Made by a program: the position numbers and the translations under genes. DNA of 64,000 nt. It comes from the human T2T-CHM13v2.0 reference genome, Homo sapiens. Under the pieces are notes generated by a model, which was given only the letters and a program-made list of their open reading frames with translations, searched no databases and was not told the DNA's origin. Each line of letters begins with the position of its first letter. The stretch's first letter is position 1. The DNA lies in the NCBI RefSeq assembly GCF_009914755.1, contig NC_060925.1; one strand, 5' to 3'. Shown here piece after piece: positions 34,864 through 42,231 of this stretch.

Positions 34864-37203
34864 GTAAGTGAGAATTTGTGTTGGGGTTTGACTAATGAAC
34901 TCTTGTATGGTAGGCCTGTTATCATGGCTTGTCTCCAGCTTCCTTGATGGGGAGGGGTGTAGGTCCCAGGCTGCTAGGGGACTAATGTAAACTTCAGGGC
35001 TCAGAGATTTCACTTCTCCAAGACCTTTCTGCTGTGCTGGCTGGCTTATCTTACCTTAAAGCTTTCTGGTGCTTTTAGTGTATTCCTTATTCTTTTTATT
35101 TTAATGTATTTGCATACATTGTACATTGGACCACTCTAGATATAATGGTTTTGATGGTTTGGGCTAGGAAGAGCATAACTCAAATGGTAGACGTATGCTG
35201 TAATTTTTAAGAGGGGCTTTAAATCACAGTACAGAGGTATAACATGAACATCTCACTATTTTTCTCTTTCTAATGCAACCTTGACATCAGGGATTCCCCT
35301 TTATTGTTGACCTCCTTAAGGATTCTGGTGTAGACTTGACTTCTGTAGCATTTGGAAGTGCCCTGTGCCAGGCTATTGCCCGGCTCTGGTAGGTCATCTC
35401 ATAGACTATAAGGTACCCTGATTCATAAACCTTAGTTCTCTCAAGTTCTTTCTGTGTTCTAGGCTCTTTTTATCTCAGGATTTCCCTGATATTTTATATT
35501 CACATATTTATATTCAAGTTTCTGTCATTCTTCTGATTTGTAAATATGTCTACTAGCCTTTGGTCCATTCTCTCTTTTTCTCCTACCTGATGAAATTACT
35601 AAATCACCTTTGGCAAACAAGGTTACTCTGTTCCTACCCCAAATCTGATGTTCCATAGCATTTCCCATTCTCTTGTAGTTTGTTTTTATGGTATTGCACA
35701 TTATATAATGATTCTTCTCCCCTAGTTTAGCTCTAGGGTGATCATATCCTACCTAATACATATTAATTAAAAGGGTACTTTTGATTTCGAGATTATCGAG
35801 GTTCCCCCCAGCCTTGTAAACTGAGGTGGTCAGGGCTGTTGGCTGAGCTCAATTTAATATCATGCTAACTGGTGGATTTAGAGAAGGAGTAGAATGCCGG
35901 GAGAGTAGAATTTCACCCAGCAGCTGCTTCTGCTTGTAATATGAGTGGACAGTGTATCTTCTCACATTTACAGTGTCCCTTTCCCCCAAAACATTTGATA
36001 GTATCAGATTAACTGTGGTGAGCATGGGGATCATCCCAAAGTTAGCCATGCCAGGAGTGAATCAATTGCTGGGGGCAGAGCAGCATTGGGCAAACTCCTC
36101 ATGCTTGACACATCTTAGCGGCTCCAGTGCACAATGCAAGTGCTACTGCCTAAATTCTAAAATACCCCTATCTTCATATTCTTATCATTGTCTATTAATT
36201 TTTTTAAAGTGGACTGTAAAAAGCCAAAGTAGAATGAAAACTAAGGTCTTAATCCAGATAGTAAGCCCAGGCCATCTGGCTGCTGCTTTTGTGCCTTGTT
36301 AGAGATCTTCTGAAGAGGGTATGGGGCCTGCAGTGGCAGATATCCCGTGCATGGCCTTGCCACTTGTATACCCATGATTGCGTGGCATTCAGGGAGTTGC
36401 CAGCATGCCTAAAGGAAGTTGTCCCATGTTTCTGGACTCTAGCTTTTCGTATTTGATTCCCCCTCTCTCTCTTTTCAGTAGCATAGCTTGTGTGGGACAC
36501 TGGAGCCGTTGTGATGGCAGCAGAAGTGTTTTCCCCTTAAAGCCAAGCCCATTAATTTTGATGGAACAGCAGGACGTACAGGGCATGTCTGAAGGGCAGG
36601 ACAGCTGGCACGGCGGACGACCCACCCCTTATCCCCTGGGAGGTACTTCACTTCTTGTGCTTAACCCTAGCTGTAGCCTGACTTTCACTGAGGGGCTTAT
36701 TCTAGACAGAATTCAGCCTAGCTCTGTAGTTTCCTTACTGGCTGTCTGCTCCCAGAAGGTCCTGAGCAGTTTGCTTCTATTATAGGGCCAGCCCTCTCTG
36801 CCTACCTTATGGCCTTGTATCATCTTGCCTGGTGGCTGCTGGCTCTCCTTACATTTTAATGTAGAGGATTAGCCTGCTGAATCAGAGAGGATGCTCCAGT
36901 CTCTAGATACCATGTTTCTGTCTTTGAAGATAAGACAATAGGAGTTGATGTCAGTAGCCTCTGAGGTTGACTTATATTGGTCCCTCCTGTCCTTATTGAA
37001 CAGCCCTGGGATTGTCCGTTTTTATGTTGCACCAGTGTCAACTTGGGGGTCTATCTGTGCCAAAGTAAAATCTCAGCATTGGGACCGTGGCTGGCTTTAG
37101 AGCTGTCAAACAGAAAGGTTTTTGGTGATTATTTTGGTTGTAGTGTATTTTGATTTTTTTCTTTTTCTTTTTCTTGGTTTATTTTATTTTTACTTTCTTA
37201 TAG

Positions 37204-37284
37204 TGCTTACTTTTCTGGTGCAGAAAGATTGTTGGGAACAGACAGGAACCAATGTGGGAATTCAACTTCAAGTTCAAAAAACAG
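37204..37284 (+). CDS. TMEM183A: TMEM183A exon 6
   Basis: Long T-tract/TAG acceptor, [27 protein letters not shown], donor GTACGT. Confidence 0.93.
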
Positions 37285-37344
37285 GTACGTGGTCTTCTCT
37301 TTGTTTTTCAGATAATACCTTGTTCTAAGAGATTTCCCTAGATA

Positions 37345-37750
37345 TCTTTCTTAGTCTGTTTGTGTTGCTATAACAGTACCACAGATTCTGGGTAACTTAA
37401 AAAGAACGAACTTTATTTCTTAACAGTTCTGGAGGCTGGGAAGTCCAAGATCAAGGTACTTGCAGGTTTGATGTTTGGTGAGGGCCTGGTCCCTTTGCTT
37501 CCAAGATGGTGTCTGATTGCATCCTTCAGAGGGGAGGAACACTTTGTCCTCACATGGTGGAAGGTGGAATGCCAAAAGGGGCTGAGCCTAGTGTGAAGAC
37601 CCTCTTATAAAGGCCTTAATCCCATTCATGAGGGAGGGCCTCCCCAGTAGGTCACCTCCTAAAAAGGCCCTACCTCTTAATACTATTGTGTTGGAGATTA
37701 AGTGTCCACATGAATTTTGGAGGAGACACAAACATTCAAATCATAACACT
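37345..37750 (-). mobile_element. MST-family (ERVL-MaLR) solo LTR
   Basis: TTAGTCTGTTTGTGTTGCTATAACA...CAGTTCTGGAGGCTGGGAAGTCCAAGATCAAGG...ACACAAACATTCAAATCATAACA. Confidence 0.85.
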
Positions 37751-37784
37751 AGGCATGAAATTGCCTTACTAAAACAGTGTACAG

Positions 37785-37990
37785 CCTAAAAATCCAAAAT
37801 CTGAAATGCCTCATAATCTGGAACTTTCTGAGTGGCAACATGATGCTCAAAGGAAATGCCTATTGGAGCATTTTGGATTTTGGGTTTGTGGATTTCAGAT
37901 GCTCAACTGGTATAATGCAAATATTCCAAAATCTGAAAAAATGGGAAACACTTCTGGCCCCAAGCGTTTTGGATAAGGGATACTCAATCC
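37785..37990 (+). mobile_element. Tigger4/MER46 MITE
   Basis: AAATCCAAAATCTGAAATGC...CATGATGCTCAAAGGAAATGC...GGATAAGGGATACTCAA. Confidence 0.75.
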
Positions 37991-38252
37991 GAAGTGCCAT
38001 GAAAACAAAAGGTAAGAGGAACTATGCTGTATTGAAAGACAAGGATAACAACCTACTGCAAAGAGTAAATCTTGAGTGGATCCTGGATAAGAGAACAAAG
38101 CTATAAAAGACATTTTGAGGCAATTTAGGAAATCAGAATGTGCTATGGATAAGATGAAATAATTGTTAATTTTCTTATGGGTGATAATGATAATGTGGTT
38201 ATATGTAAGTGTATGCTGAATTATTTAAGATTGAAGTATAAATGTTAAGAGA

Positions 38253-38575
38253 ACATATTAAGAGAATAGTTCCCAAAAGATTAATTGCAGTTACAGGATA
38301 GTGGAAGTCTTAAGTCACCTTTACTTTGTCAATATATTTATATATTATTTAAGCTTATTTACCATTAAAAAAAGCTTTCATTGTGGAAGGAGGAGCCTCA
38401 TGTATTTCTGAACGTAAGCCTAAGAGACAGAGAAGACAAATTACATGAACTCTCCAGTTGCAAAGCCAATGAAAATTTTTTAAAACCTGGAAAAATTATG
38501 CCAGAGGCACATATATTGTTTACTAATCTGATTACTGTCCAAGCCTTGAACAGTGACAGTATTACTCAAAGGACA
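38253..38575 (+). repeat. Left arm of long inverted repeat (TMEM183A intron 6)
   Basis: Reverse complement of 40403-40721; near-identical conceptual translations in ORFs 38381+ and 40361- (EPHVFLNVSLR.REDKLHELSSC.ANE.FLKPGKI). Confidence 0.95.
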
Positions 38576-39515
38576 CCTGTATTATTAGGTGTAATTATGA
38601 TCACCCTATATTCTTATGTGGAATTATGAGCAGATATGGCAATAGGTTTATGGGTTTCTCTCTCACTATGCATATAAAACCCATAAACTCATTACAGAGG
38701 AGACAGGTGAAAACACATGGAATGGGGTGGGGTGGGGGGTGCGGGGATGGGGTGGGGAGGGAGATGTTTTCACTTGTCTCCTCTACTTAGTATCTCACTG
38801 ATGAGACACAAATACTATGAATTATTCTCACGTGATGGCAGGTGGGTTACAGATAAGTTTGTAATTAAAGTAAACCTTATTTTCCTATTGATTTATTTCA
38901 AAAACATGGTTCTGGGGAAGAATTTTAGTTCTGATATCTTGCATTTAATAAGATCTGCACAGTCTGTGATATCCATTAGACACTGGTAGAAAGTCCACCT
39001 TTCTGAGAAGGGATTGAGAGGCAGTCTTAGTGGTGAAATGTGACTAGAAGCAGACACTAGGATTACTGCAGGAAAGTGAATGCCGAGATTTTCCTTTAGT
39101 TCCGAGACTTGTGATTCCTTTATTTTATGGTGTCTGGAATTAGGTGGCCACTTCTGCTTCCATCCCTTTTGTGCAGCAGATGTTCTTTGGAGTCTGACAA
39201 GTTACAAGGAATTTGCAGTCTTTCAAACATTGTAGAACCTCTGGTAGAGGCTGTAAGTTTCCATTTCTTGTCAGATGGCAAGGAATACCATCTAAACGAA
39301 GCATAAACCCATTGCCACATTTGCTCATCCAAATGTATTTACCCTTCTTTCAAAGGGTAGGTTTTCTTTGATCTCTGTATAGAAACATGTATAAAGAGAG
39401 AAGATAAAAGTGTATCTCACTAGCTTTAGTTGAGCCATAGGATTTTCTTTGGTGGACTCTTAGAGCCATATAATGTTTCTTCTAAGCCATTGGATTAATT
39501 CTCAGTTCTCTTCAG

Positions 39516-39671
39516 TCCCCTAGGTTAAAGAGCAAGTGTACAGGAGGATTGCAGCCTCCCGTTCAGTACGAAGATGTTCATACCAATCCAGACCAGGACT
39601 GCTGCCTACTGCAGGTCACCACCCTCAATTTCATCTTTATTCCGATTGTCATGGGAATGATATTTACTCTG
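39516..39671 (+). CDS. TMEM183A: TMEM183A exon 7 (156 nt, phase 0/0, hydrophobic segment)
   Basis: ttcAG acceptor, [52 protein letters not shown], donor GTAAGT. Confidence 0.95.
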
Positions 39672-39751
39672 GTAAGTGGGGACTCAGGATGTCATTCTCA
39701 GCTCCTTTTTTTTTTTTTTTTTTCATTCTGAAAGGAGGTGAACCGCAGCTC

Positions 39752-41442
39752 TTTTTTTTTTTTTTTTTTTTAAGAGACGTGGTCTCACTCTGTCACTCAG
39801 GCTGAAGTGCAGTGATGGAATCATCACTCATTGCAACCTCAAAACTCCTGGGCTTAAGCTATCCTCTTGCTTCAGCCTCCCAAGTAGTTAGGACTACAGG
39901 TGTGCACCACCACCCCTAGCTAATTTTTATTTTTTGTTGCAATGGGTGTCTCACAGCGTTGCTGAGGCTTGTCTCAGACTCCTAGCCTCAAGCAGTTCTT
40001 CCACGTCGGCCTCTCAAGTGCTGAGATTATAAGTGTGAGCCACTGCATTCAGCTTTTTTATAGATTTTTGCTATATCTGAGGTTTGAAGGATATTTGTAA
40101 ATTTAACCATGAAGGAAGGTATCTTTTTTCAAAAAAAAAGTTTGAACTCAGTCCTGTATATTAGCAACAGACAGATTTGTGGAGACATTAATTATATCTG
40201 AGAGTATTTTACCTTGTTTCCTTCTTTGTAGGAAAGGGAATGTTTTTGCATTTTCATGTGTAGTGATGATTAATGATTGAGAAACATTATCCTATTAGGA
40301 AGAATGATGAGATATATACATGGGCACTGTATGTCAGGACCTTGAGGCATGCATATGGGGTTACAAATGGGATATTAAAATACAGGGTGACCAGCTCAGC
40401 TCTGTCCTTTGTGTGATATTATCACTGTTCAAGGCTTGGCCAGTAATTAGTAAACAACGTATGTGCCTCTGGCATATTTTTCCAGGTTTTAAAAATTTTT
40501 CATTGGCTTGGCAACTGGAGAGTTCATGTAATTTGTCTTCTCTGTATCTTAGGCTTACATTCAGAAATACATGAGGTTCCCCTTCCACAATGAAAGTAGC
40601 TTTTTTAAAATGGTAAATGACTTCAAATAATACATAAATATACTGACAAAGTAAAGGTGACTTAGACTTCCACTATCCTGTAACTGCAATTAATCTTTTG
40701 GGAACTGTTCTCTTAATGTGTCTGTTAATATGTATGTACTCTCTCTCTCTCAAATAATTTTGTATAATTGAGATTGTGTCATATATACAGTTTTGTTTTG
40801 TTTTTTTTGAGATGGAGTCTCGCTCTGTAGTCCATGCTGGAGTGCCGTGGTGCGCAGTCTCGGCTCCCTGCAACCTCTGTCTCCTGGTTTCAAGTGATTC
40901 TCCTGCCTCCGCTTCCCAAGTAGCTATCTGGGATTACAGGTGCCTGCCACCACACCCAGCTAATTTTTGTATTTTTGGTAGAAATGGGGTTTGCTCAGGC
41001 TGGTCTCAAACTCCTAACCTCAGACAATCTGCCTGCCTTAGCCTCCCAAAGTGCTCATTAGGGAGGCTTTCTTTAGCATAGTTTAAACGTGAAGCTGAGA
41101 AGGCCTTATAAAATTCTCCTTAATTTTTTATATCTTTAAAGGTTGGCTGGGCGTGGTGGCTCATGCCTGTAATCCCAGCACTTTGGGAGGCCGAGGTGGG
41201 CAGATCACTTGAGGTCAGGAGTTTGAGACCAGCCTGGCCAACATGGCAAAACCCTGTCTCTACTAAAAATACAAAAATTAGCCGGTCATGGTGGTGCACG
41301 CCTATATTCCTAGCTACTTGGGAGGCTGAGGCACAAGAATCGTTTGATCCCAGGAGGCGGAGGTTGCAGTGAGCCGAGATCACATCACTGCACTACAGCC
41401 TGGGCAACAGAACGAGGTCCTTTCTCAAAAAAAAAAAAAAAA
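39752..41442. mobile_element. Alus in intron 7: 39752-40053 (-), 40790-41055 (-), 41144-41442 (+)
   Basis: Alu consensus with poly-A/T tails. Confidence 0.88.
40403..40721 (-). repeat. Right arm of long inverted repeat (TMEM183A intron 7)
   Basis: See left arm; includes a 43-nt perfect match AGTTCCCAAAAGATTAATTGCAGTTACAGGATAGTGGAAGTCT. Confidence 0.95.
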
Positions 41443-41578
41443 GGTGTTTGTTTTATAATTTAGAGATTAATCTTGTGGCCTAGCCAGTATAAATTAGTCT
41501 GGACTATTTCATTTCAGAGTGAGCTCTTGGAAACCAAGGTTGTGTAAGTTGGATACTGAATTTGCTTTTCCATTTCAG

Positions 41579-41764
41579 TTTACTATCAATGTGAGCACGG
41601 ACATGCGGCATCATCGAGTGAGACTGGTGTTCCAAGATTCCCCTGTCCATGGTGGTCGGAAACTGCGCAGTGAACAGGGTGTGCAAGTCATCCTGGACCC
41701 AGTGCACAGCGTTCGGCTCTTTGACTGGTGGCATCCTCAGTACCCATTCTCCCTGAGAGCGTAG
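41579..41764 (+). CDS. TMEM183A: TMEM183A exon 8 coding part
   Basis: [18 protein letters not shown]...[28 protein letters not shown]; all 8 exons sum to 1131 nt = 376 aa + stop. Confidence 0.95.
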
Positions 41765-42231
41765 TTACTGCTTCCCATCCCTTGGGGGCAGCCTCGAGTG
41801 TAGTCCATTAGTAATCAGATTCCAGTTTGGACAGGGTGGCTGGATTGTATATCTCGTTAGTAATGTACATGCTCTTCAGGTTCTAGGGCTCCTGTTAGGG
41901 GAGGGAGAAATGTTGAATCAAGAGGGAAAACAACTACTATGATTTATAAACATATTTTAATGTAAAAATTTGCATTTAAAAGGAGTGGCCCTGTTTTCTG
42001 TGTTAAAACCCCATTTGGTGCTATTGAGTTTGTTCTTTATTCTTTTATCCCAGTGAAAATTGTTGATCTTGCTGTAGGGAAAAATTAAACTCTTTGAATC
42101 TCCAAACAAGGAAGTTTCAGCATTCCCTTATGGATCAGAGGAACCTTAGAGGCCTGAAATTGTTGCTTCCAGTTTAGCTGCCCCTCAAATTCAAGTGAAT
42201 ATTTTCCCTTCTCCCTTTACCCTTCTCCAGA

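What the first reader, a model, noticed from the sequence alone, without database searches (positions are those of the whole stretch)
38253..40721. Non-Alu ~320-bp inverted repeat that brackets only TMEM183A exon 7
Seen: 38253-38575 is the reverse complement of 40403-40721 at roughly 90% identity by eye, with perfect runs of 43 and 35 nt. Fainter homology continues inward (38601-38612 vs 40379-40390; ~38641-38715 vs ~40204-40297). The ~1.8-kb loop holds one exon, exon 7, which is 156 nt, phase 0/0 and encodes most of the only hydrophobic stretch ([16 protein letters not shown]). The outer part looks like an ancient L1ME tail, but independent L1ME copies would be far more diverged, so this is a local inverted duplication. 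Known: complementary flanking introns promote exon skipping and back-splicing and are ADAR substrates. Inference: a pre-mRNA stem that loops out exon 7, giving an in-frame 324-aa isoform lacking the hydrophobic segment and/or a single-exon circRNA. High outer and low inner identity suggests an old duplication kept similar by gene conversion or selection for pairing.
Basis: partly seen in the sequence, partly recalled or inferred. Interest (0 to 1): 0.85.

Follow-up and report, generated by a model that had tools for sequence, protein, structure and literature searches.

The report
Unique inverted repeat bracketing TMEM183A exon 7
Two copies of a roughly 360-base stretch found nowhere else in the genome sit in opposite orientation in the introns on either side of TMEM183A exon 7 and could pair in the RNA, but nothing available here shows that this changes how the gene is spliced.

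Summary
The inverted repeat is real. It is slightly longer than reported: 38212-38575 pairs with 40403-40766 (E 3e-106). The core is 93% identical at aligned positions.

It is not Alu and not a high-copy family. The two arms are each other's only matches in the T2T genome. Of 224 inverted pairs found in 224 kb of nearby sequence, this was the only low-copy one. A local inverted duplication is therefore supported. From its divergence it is probably primate-age, but that is inferred and has not been tested across species.

In silico the arms form a duplex of about 335 bp that loops out exon 7 alone.

The functional reading has no support:
- 0 of 18 RefSeq transcripts skip exon 7.
- 6 of 6 processed pseudogene copies keep it.
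- Both splice sites look strong.
- The exon is short for circularisation.
- No paper found reports a TMEM183A circRNA or RNA editing.
- The "hydrophobic segment" is reported to be a buried beta-strand, so a skipped isoform would probably misfold.

I found no signal of gene conversion or of selection for pairing. The inward homology is inconclusive.

Verdict: a genuine, unusual but probably neutral structure, and a good candidate for intronic dsRNA and ADAR editing. It is a new member of a known kind.

The parts
38212..38575 (+). Left arm of the inverted repeat, in TMEM183A intron 6. The high-identity core is 38253-38575.
   Evidence: blastn E 3e-106; alignment counts; only two copies in the genome; not soft-masked
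40403..40766 (-). Right arm, the reverse complement of the left arm, in intron 7. The core is 40403-40721. A (GA)n run lies near its outer end.
38576..40402 (+). The 1827-nt spacer, which is the loop of the predicted RNA stem. It holds exon 7 and one antisense Alu.
39516..39671 (+). TMEM183A coding exon 7: 156 nt, phase 0/0, aa 264-315. The acceptor is preceded by a pyrimidine tract and the donor reads GTAAGT.
   Evidence: present in 18 of 18 RefSeq transcripts (2 use acceptor 39524)
38598..38638 (+). Possible short inward continuation of the left arm after an indel. It pairs with 40352-40393. Probable but weak.
   Evidence: local score 13 vs 7.1 +/- 1.5, reached by 4 of 500 shuffles; blastn alone E 4.8
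39772..39920 (-). Antisense Alu inside the loop, just downstream of exon 7. These are the coordinates of the partial SRP-like match.
   Evidence: Rfam Metazoa_SRP 64.6 bits, below gathering score, as is typical for Alu; masked 39823-39943
40796..41439 (.). Inverted Alu pair wholly inside intron 7 (antisense about 40796-41063, sense about 41174-41439). It pairs with itself in the predicted fold and does not compete for the arms.
38045..38204 (+). Old low-copy interspersed repeat next to the left arm. Six of its nine genomic matches end at 38202-38204, 8 nt before the arm begins.
   Evidence: 9 matches elsewhere, 71-87% identity

Best explanation
About 360 bp of otherwise unique intronic DNA was copied once, in inverted orientation, about 2 kb away. 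One copy now lies in TMEM183A intron 6 and the other in intron 7, with the constitutive exon 7 between them. From the arm-to-arm divergence this probably happened in the anthropoid or catarrhine stem lineage.

Shown: the repeat, its uniqueness in the genome, and its predicted ability to form a nearly continuous RNA duplex of about 335 bp that loops out exon 7.

Inferred: in the nucleus some pre-mRNAs form this duplex. It is then an ADAR substrate, giving clustered A-to-I editing in both arms, and it is removed with the introns. It yields at most a low level of exon-7 skipping or a 156-nt circle, while the exon-7-containing mRNA remains the product. On this reading the repeat is a neutral structural relic and not a regulated switch.
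For: - Repeat and extent.
- Two copies only in T2T-CHM13: (first look found 2 candidates, both scored). One search shows the tool does detect 71-81% identical old repeats.
- No Alu/SRP similarity in the arms, and the arms are unmasked.
- Only 1 low-copy pair among 224 inverted pairs of 150 bp or more within 10 kb, in 224 kb of sequence.
- Duplex energy and full-region fold.
- No Alu in intron 6, so this is the only long cross-exon complementarity.
- Constitutive use of exon 7: 18 of 18 RefSeq transcripts. 6 of 6 processed copies contain exon 7, including the 100% identical chr3 copy that PMC5010893 lists as human-specific, which is therefore younger than the repeat.
- Strong splice sites.
- Short exons circularise poorly.
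- No sign of conversion or pairing selection.
Against: - No RNA data could be consulted, so editing, skipping and back-splicing are all untested. Their absence from RefSeq and from retrocopies only shows that they are not dominant.
- The age is inferred from K2P 0.07-0.09 with a recalled neutral rate, not from other species. Any gene conversion would make it a minimum age.
- The colinear weak similarity inward of the arms, if real, would need either an older duplication or error-prone repair at the junction.
- The direction of copying (which arm is the parent) and the mechanism are unknown. No target-site duplication was found.
- Matches in closed regions of the reference are not shown, so 'two copies' is a lower bound.
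Confidence: 0.6

Rival explanations
1. One reading: the stem is a working loop-out device. It produces a meaningful amount of an in-frame 324-aa isoform lacking exon 7, a single-exon circRNA, or both.
For: - A long, stable cross-exon duplex is predicted and is the dominant long-range helix in the fold.
- Exon 7 is phase 0/0, so skipping stays in frame.
- No competing Alu lies in intron 6.
- Inverted repeats across flanking introns are reported to drive back-splicing (PMC11263572 passages; PMC4201285 abstract).
Against: - 0 of 18 RefSeq transcripts skip exon 7.
- 6 of 6 processed copies retain it.
- 0 papers for circTMEM183 terms, and none of 6 papers holding TMEM183A and circRNA concerns such a circle (the other four judged by title only).
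- A 156-nt exon is far below the lengths that circularised well in the ZKSCAN1 vector.
- The exon encodes a reported core beta-strand, so the isoform would likely be unstable.
Confidence: 0.15
2. The duplication is much older and longer (about 500 bp per arm). Its outer 320-360 bp have been kept alike by arm-to-arm gene conversion or by selection for pairing.
For: - Identity drops abruptly at 38575/40403 at an indel.
- Weak colinear similarity follows it: 4 of 500 shuffles reached the first block, and 0 of 1224 GC-matched controls and 5 of 1000 dinucleotide shuffles reached the chain-like score.
Against: - The wrong orientation of the same inner sequence scores the same (27.5 vs 27.75).
- blastn finds nothing significant inward (E 4.8).
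- Differences in the core are spread as chance expects (longest run P 0.16; 42-49 of 50 identical in the six full bins spanning alignment columns 51-350).
- G.U-preserving versus A.C-making transitions are 11 to 7.
- 91-93% identity is far below that of conversion-maintained palindromes (recalled).
Confidence: 0.15
3. The arms are two independent insertions of one interspersed repeat family (L1, a DNA transposon or an LTR) that happen to face each other.
For: An old repeat abuts the left arm. No transposon library was available to exclude a very old family.
Against: - No third copy in 3.1 Gb, although the tool finds 71-81% identical repeats.
- The arms are 91-93% alike, which independent old copies would not be.
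- No flanking target-site duplication.
- No Alu/SRP signal.
Confidence: 0.04

Closest known systems
Inverted Alu pairs across flanking introns (IRAlus) that promote back-splicing and influence exon choice
   Same: Complementary sequences lie in the introns on both sides of an exon. They are predicted to pair in the pre-mRNA and bring the splice sites together (PMC11263572 passages).
   Different: The arms are not Alu and are not repeated elsewhere. The duplex is longer and closer to perfect than the Alu pairs in this window, which are 72-84% complementary. No circRNA or skipping is documented for this exon.
Short non-Alu intronic complementary sequences sufficient for circularisation (Liang and Wilusz 2014, ZKSCAN1/HIPK3/EPHB4 plasmids)
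   Same: 30-40 nt of inverted repeat suffices there (abstract). The arms here far exceed that.
   Different: That work shows that repeats must collaborate with the exon. A 51-nt exon did not circularise, and ZKSCAN1 exons of 400 nt or less did so poorly (section 12). Exon 7 is 156 nt.
Mouse Sry locus, where large inverted repeats flank the exon and give a circular transcript (recalled, no call)
   Same: A locus-specific inverted duplication, not a transposon pair, brackets a single exon.
   Different: The Sry arms are many kilobases long and the circle is a major product. Here the arms are about 360 bp and no circle is known.
Conversion-maintained palindromes of the human X and Y chromosomes (recalled, no call)
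   Same: Local inverted duplication with a unique spacer.
   Different: Those have arms of many kilobases with more than 99% identity. Here the arms are about 360 bp at 91-93%, with no conversion signal.

Membership tests
Young high-copy interspersed repeat pair (Alu or young L1) | Many similar copies across the genome | tested here: not met
   Each arm finds only itself and the other arm in 3.1 Gb. Both arms are unmasked.
Young high-copy interspersed repeat pair (Alu or young L1) | Alu: similarity to 7SL/SRP RNA | tested here: not met
   The Rfam E-value scan of 37000-42000 gives SRP-like hits only at 39772-39920, 40807-40960 and 41146-41428, none in the arms.
Local low-copy inverted duplication | Two copies, inverted, close together, more alike than either is to anything else | tested here: met
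   It is the only low-copy pair among 224 inverted pairs in 224 kb.
Local low-copy inverted duplication | One arm absent in outgroup species (a dated single event) | not testable with these tools
   No other mammalian genomes were available. The age is inferred from K2P 0.07-0.09 only.
   No transposon library was available. Only an unnamed old repeat ending at 38202-38204, outside the arm, was seen.
DNA transposon with terminal inverted repeats | Target-site duplication at both outer ends, and other copies in the genome | tested here: not met
   No flanking direct repeat at the arm boundaries. No other copies. The interior holds a constitutive coding exon.
circRNA-promoting reverse-complementary matches | Complementary sequences in the upstream and downstream introns that can pair | tested here: met
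   337 intermolecular pairs at -492 kcal/mol. A 334-pair stem appears in the fold of the whole region. Prediction only.
circRNA-promoting reverse-complementary matches | An observed back-splice junction of the bracketed exon | not testable with these tools
   No reads or circRNA databases were available. 0 papers for circTMEM183 terms. Supplements are closed and could hold such entries.
circRNA-promoting reverse-complementary matches | Exon long enough to circularise (a correlate, not a strict rule) | tested here: not met
   Exon 7 is 156 nt. Exons of 400 nt or less circularised poorly in the ZKSCAN1 vector, although a 360-nt two-exon circle did form.
ADAR (A-to-I editing) substrate | Long, nearly perfect intramolecular duplex in a transcribed region | tested here: met
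   Both arms lie in introns of one gene on the same strand.
ADAR (A-to-I editing) substrate | Clustered A-to-G mismatches in RNA-seq | not testable with these tools
   No reads or editing tables were available. Of the 15 listed of 30 papers holding TMEM183A and 'editing', none is by title about RNA editing of this gene.
Conversion-maintained palindrome | Arm identity near 100%, or patchy tracts of identity | tested here: not met
   91-93% identity. The longest perfect run of 42 nt has P 0.16 under uniform scatter. Bins of 50 columns hold 42-49 identities within the core.

The most novel reading that the evidence does not exclude
The repeat is a primate-specific, selectively kept RNA switch. 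Pairing of the two unique arms, tuned by ADAR editing or by RNA helicases, loops out exon 7 in particular tissues or states. This gives a fold-disrupted, exon-7-less TMEM183A or a small circular RNA. The arms are held alike by gene conversion after a much older duplication, whose decayed inner part is still faintly visible.
Probability: 0.06. Interest if true: 0.55.

Novelty: new member of a known kind. Interest (0 to 1): 0.3.

Why it matters
Almost all long intronic duplexes in human genes come from Alu pairs, so their effects are hard to separate from other Alu properties. A unique, non-transposon duplex of about 335 bp around a single constitutive exon of a broadly expressed gene would be a clean natural test case. 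It could show how much a strong cross-exon stem alone changes splicing, back-splicing and ADAR editing. If it has no effect, that is also informative: strong splice sites and a short exon would override even a very stable loop-out stem. For TMEM183A itself the matter is minor, since the gene's function is unknown (PMC5010893 passage).

Tried and rejected
- Young repeat family: rejected.
- Transposon with terminal inverted repeats: rejected. There is no target-site duplication and no other copies.
- 3' transduction or retroposed copy: neither arm has a poly(A) at either end (read). The Alu next to the right arm has no partner next to the left arm. I dropped this.
- Which arm is the parent: the inner flanks are unique and the outer left flank is an old repeat that is not duplicated. 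This gave no answer.
- Gene-conversion signal from run lengths: none.
- Pairing selection from G.U versus A.C: 11 vs 7, no signal and low power.
- Inward homology: several statistics were tried and it is left inconclusive, because the forward orientation scores as high.
- Pfam on exons 5-8 singly: 0 families for 4 of 4.
- Rfam: nothing in the arms.
- Literature for a TMEM183A circRNA or RNA editing: nothing found in main texts. In one search I saw only titles and abstract starts for 15 of the 30 papers. Supplementary tables are closed and are where circRNA or editing-site lists would be.
- Background survey: only 224 kb, and it includes the finding's own window, so the rarity estimate is rough.
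- Not done: protein homologue search and structure prediction of TMEM183A (see below), cross-species comparison, any RNA-seq check, any check for an inversion polymorphism. The one haplotype here has exon 7 in the sense orientation.
Full report
**1. The observation**

The inverted repeat is in the sequence at the stated place.
- The repeat finder returned a colinear set of inverted pieces spanning 38253-38575 and 40403-40721.
- A blastn of intron 6 against intron 7 returned one strong minus-strand match, 38212-38575 vs 40766-40403. It is 87.1% identical over 373 columns with gaps counted, E 3e-106. Every other hit had E of 0.09 or worse.
That outer piece is only 77.5% identical and contains a (GA)n run in the right arm.
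There are 14 transitions, 7 transversions and 7 indel events, and K2P is 0.070.
- Over the whole repeat, 325 of 355 positions are identical, K2P 0.090.
- The longest perfect runs are 42 and 35 nt.

**2. What the arms are**

Each arm, searched against the whole T2T-CHM13 genome, found only itself and the other arm. The first look gave 2 candidates and both were scored.

The same tool is sensitive to old repeats.
- With all of intron 6 as query it listed dozens of 71-81% identical copies of two other families, at window 37344-37749 and 37788-37999, from 7738 candidates.
- It also found 71-87% identical copies of a small repeat at 38045-38204.

The arms carry no SRP-like (Alu) signal. The three Alus of the region all lie in intron 7: 39772-39920 minus, 40807-40960 minus and 41146-41428 plus. 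The arms are not soft-masked, and intron 6 has no masked stretch at all.

I ran a small survey over the 64-kb window plus 16 blocks of 10 kb from chr1:202.0-202.4 Mb, 224 kb in all. It held 224 inverted pairs of 150 bp or more within 10 kb. 223 were high-copy, and the only low-copy pair was this one.

A local inverted duplication is the reading that fits.

I could not name any ancient family. I can only say that six of the nine genomic matches of an old repeat end at 38202-38204, 8 nt before the arm.

**3. Origin and age**

- No target-site duplication flanks either arm.
- Neither arm ends in poly(A).
- The inner flanks are unique.
- Which arm is the parent, and by what mechanism it was copied, remain open.
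- The age is inferred. K2P 0.07-0.09 between arms is somewhat more than human-macaque neutral divergence as I recall it. That puts the event roughly in the anthropoid or catarrhine stem lineage. This is an inference from a recalled rate, and it would be a minimum if conversion has acted.

**4. Gene conversion or selection**

- With the observed number of differing columns scattered at random, a longest run of 42 or more occurs in 16% of 20000 simulations.
- Bins of 50 columns inside the core hold 42-49 identities.
- Of 18 transition differences, 11 leave a G.U pair in the sense RNA and 7 give A.C.
- None of this points to conversion or to selection for pairing, though power is low.

**5. Inward homology**

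- Just inside the sharp boundary, after an unequal replaced segment, 38598-38638 aligns to 40393-40352. The local score of 13 compares with 7.1 +/- 1.5 for shuffles, and 4 of 500 shuffles reached it.
- Further in, about 38640-38687 against 40297-40253 is weak. The fraction reaching the observed score was 0.024 of shuffles and 0.087 of 2058 natural controls.
- A chain-like score over both blocks, 27.75, was reached by 0 of 2058 controls, 0 of 1224 GC-matched controls and 5 of 1000 dinucleotide shuffles.
- However, the same inner sequence in the wrong orientation scored 27.5.
- I therefore take the first roughly 40 nt as probably homologous and the rest as unproven. The 'high outer, low inner identity' argument rests on this unproven part.

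**6. The RNA stem**

- Co-folded as two strands, the arms give -492 kcal/mol with 337 intermolecular pairs out of 364 nt. The gain over the separate folds is -372 kcal/mol, against -14 +/- 4 for 30 shuffles of one arm.
- In the minimum-energy fold of 37204-41764 (4561 nt), the arms form a 334-pair stem that loops out 38576-40402, and so exon 7 alone.
- In that fold the antisense Alu at 40796-41063 pairs with the sense Alu at 41174-41439, within intron 7.
- These are thermodynamic predictions. They ignore co-transcriptional kinetics and bound proteins.

**7. Does it change splicing?**

The available evidence says not as a major outcome.
- All 18 RefSeq TMEM183A transcripts contain exon 7. 16 use acceptor 39516 and 2 use acceptor 39524.
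- The acceptor follows a pyrimidine tract and the donor is GTAAGT.
- Processed copies of the mRNA serve as a fossil record. Searches with exons 6, 7 and 8 and a blastn of two older copies found six copies: chr3:152.73 Mb, chr15, chr5, chr14, chr3:84.74 Mb and chr7.
- All six carry exon 7 after exon 6. None joins exon 6 to exon 8.
- The chr3:152.73 Mb copy is 100% identical over these exons. It is listed as a human-specific retrocopy in PMC5010893 (passages), so it postdates the repeat.
- No paper holds circTMEM183-type terms.
- 6 papers hold both TMEM183A and circRNA. I read the TMEM183A passages of two: one concerns a pseudogene lncRNA and one only lists the gene. The other four I judged by title.
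- Of the 30 papers holding TMEM183A and 'editing', I saw the 15 listed, and by title and abstract start none concerns RNA editing of this gene.
- Supplements, where circRNA and editing tables live, were closed.
- Liang and Wilusz found that 30-40 nt repeats suffice for circularisation (abstract). They also found that a 51-nt exon did not circularise and that ZKSCAN1 exons of 400 nt or less did so poorly (section 12). Exon 7 is 156 nt.

**8. The protein side**

- Exon 7 encodes aa 264-315, and the most hydrophobic 19-residue windows start at aa 294-303.
- The AFTM paper states that residues 300-320 are predicted as a membrane segment by UniProt and HTP. In the AlphaFold model, however, part of this region is a hydrophobic beta-strand within a soluble globular domain (PMC10013729 passages).
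- An exon-7-less protein would then lack a core strand. It is not simply a version without a membrane anchor.
- Pfam found no family in exons 5-8 taken singly.
The antiquity and conservation of exon 7 were therefore not tested here.

**9. Verdict**

The structure is real and unusual: unique sequence, about 360 bp, 91-93% identical, bracketing one exon. The kind is known, namely intronic complementary sequences across an exon, and here they arose by a local inverted duplication.

The most likely consequence is an intronic double-stranded RNA that is edited and discarded, with little effect on the mRNA. This is an inference that needs RNA data.

Noticed in passing
window 38696-38784: A G-rich tract (38719-38766, runs of GGGG/GGGGG) sits between a 20-nt inverted repeat (38696-38715 / 38765-38784, 95% complementary). 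The tract resembles a tandem array on chr21. It may be a G-quadruplex-forming element inside the loop, about 750 nt upstream of exon 7.
   Followed up: partly
window 37344-37999: There are two older interspersed repeats in intron 6. One is a family of about 400 bp at 37344-37749 (copies 71-80% identical; 7738 first-look candidates for the whole intron-6 query). The other is a family of about 210 bp at 37788-37999 (80-81% identical copies). The second folds into a 40-pair hairpin (37786-37891) and gives a sub-threshold mir-1290-like Rfam hit at 37772-37848. Neither family was named.
   Followed up: partly
window 39516-39524 and 41673: Two RefSeq mRNAs (NM_001322955, NM_001322957) use an acceptor 8 nt inside exon 7. 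This shifts the frame, and the coding part then ends at 41673 instead of 41764.
   Followed up: no
G000 C3:152733418-152733976; C15:28676112-28676671; C5:32637146-32637696; C14:65064399-65064896; L006 (C3:84.74 Mb); L005 (C7:147.77 Mb): There are six processed copies of TMEM183A of very different ages (100% down to about 78% identity over exons 6-8). The chr7 copy has about 390 nt inserted between its exon 6 and exon 7 parts.
   Followed up: partly
window 39686-39781: Two long T runs lie within 15-100 nt downstream of the exon 7 donor. The second is the tail of the antisense Alu in the loop.
   Followed up: no
TMEM183A protein aa 300-320 (exons 7-8): A published AlphaFold-based survey suggests that TMEM183A may not be a membrane protein at all, despite its name (PMC10013729 passages).
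   Followed up: partly
window 38045-38204: An old low-copy repeat (9 matches elsewhere, 71-87% identity), six of whose nine matches end at 38202-38204, directly abutting the outer boundary of the left arm. Whether this junction has anything to do with the duplication breakpoint is unknown.
   Followed up: partly
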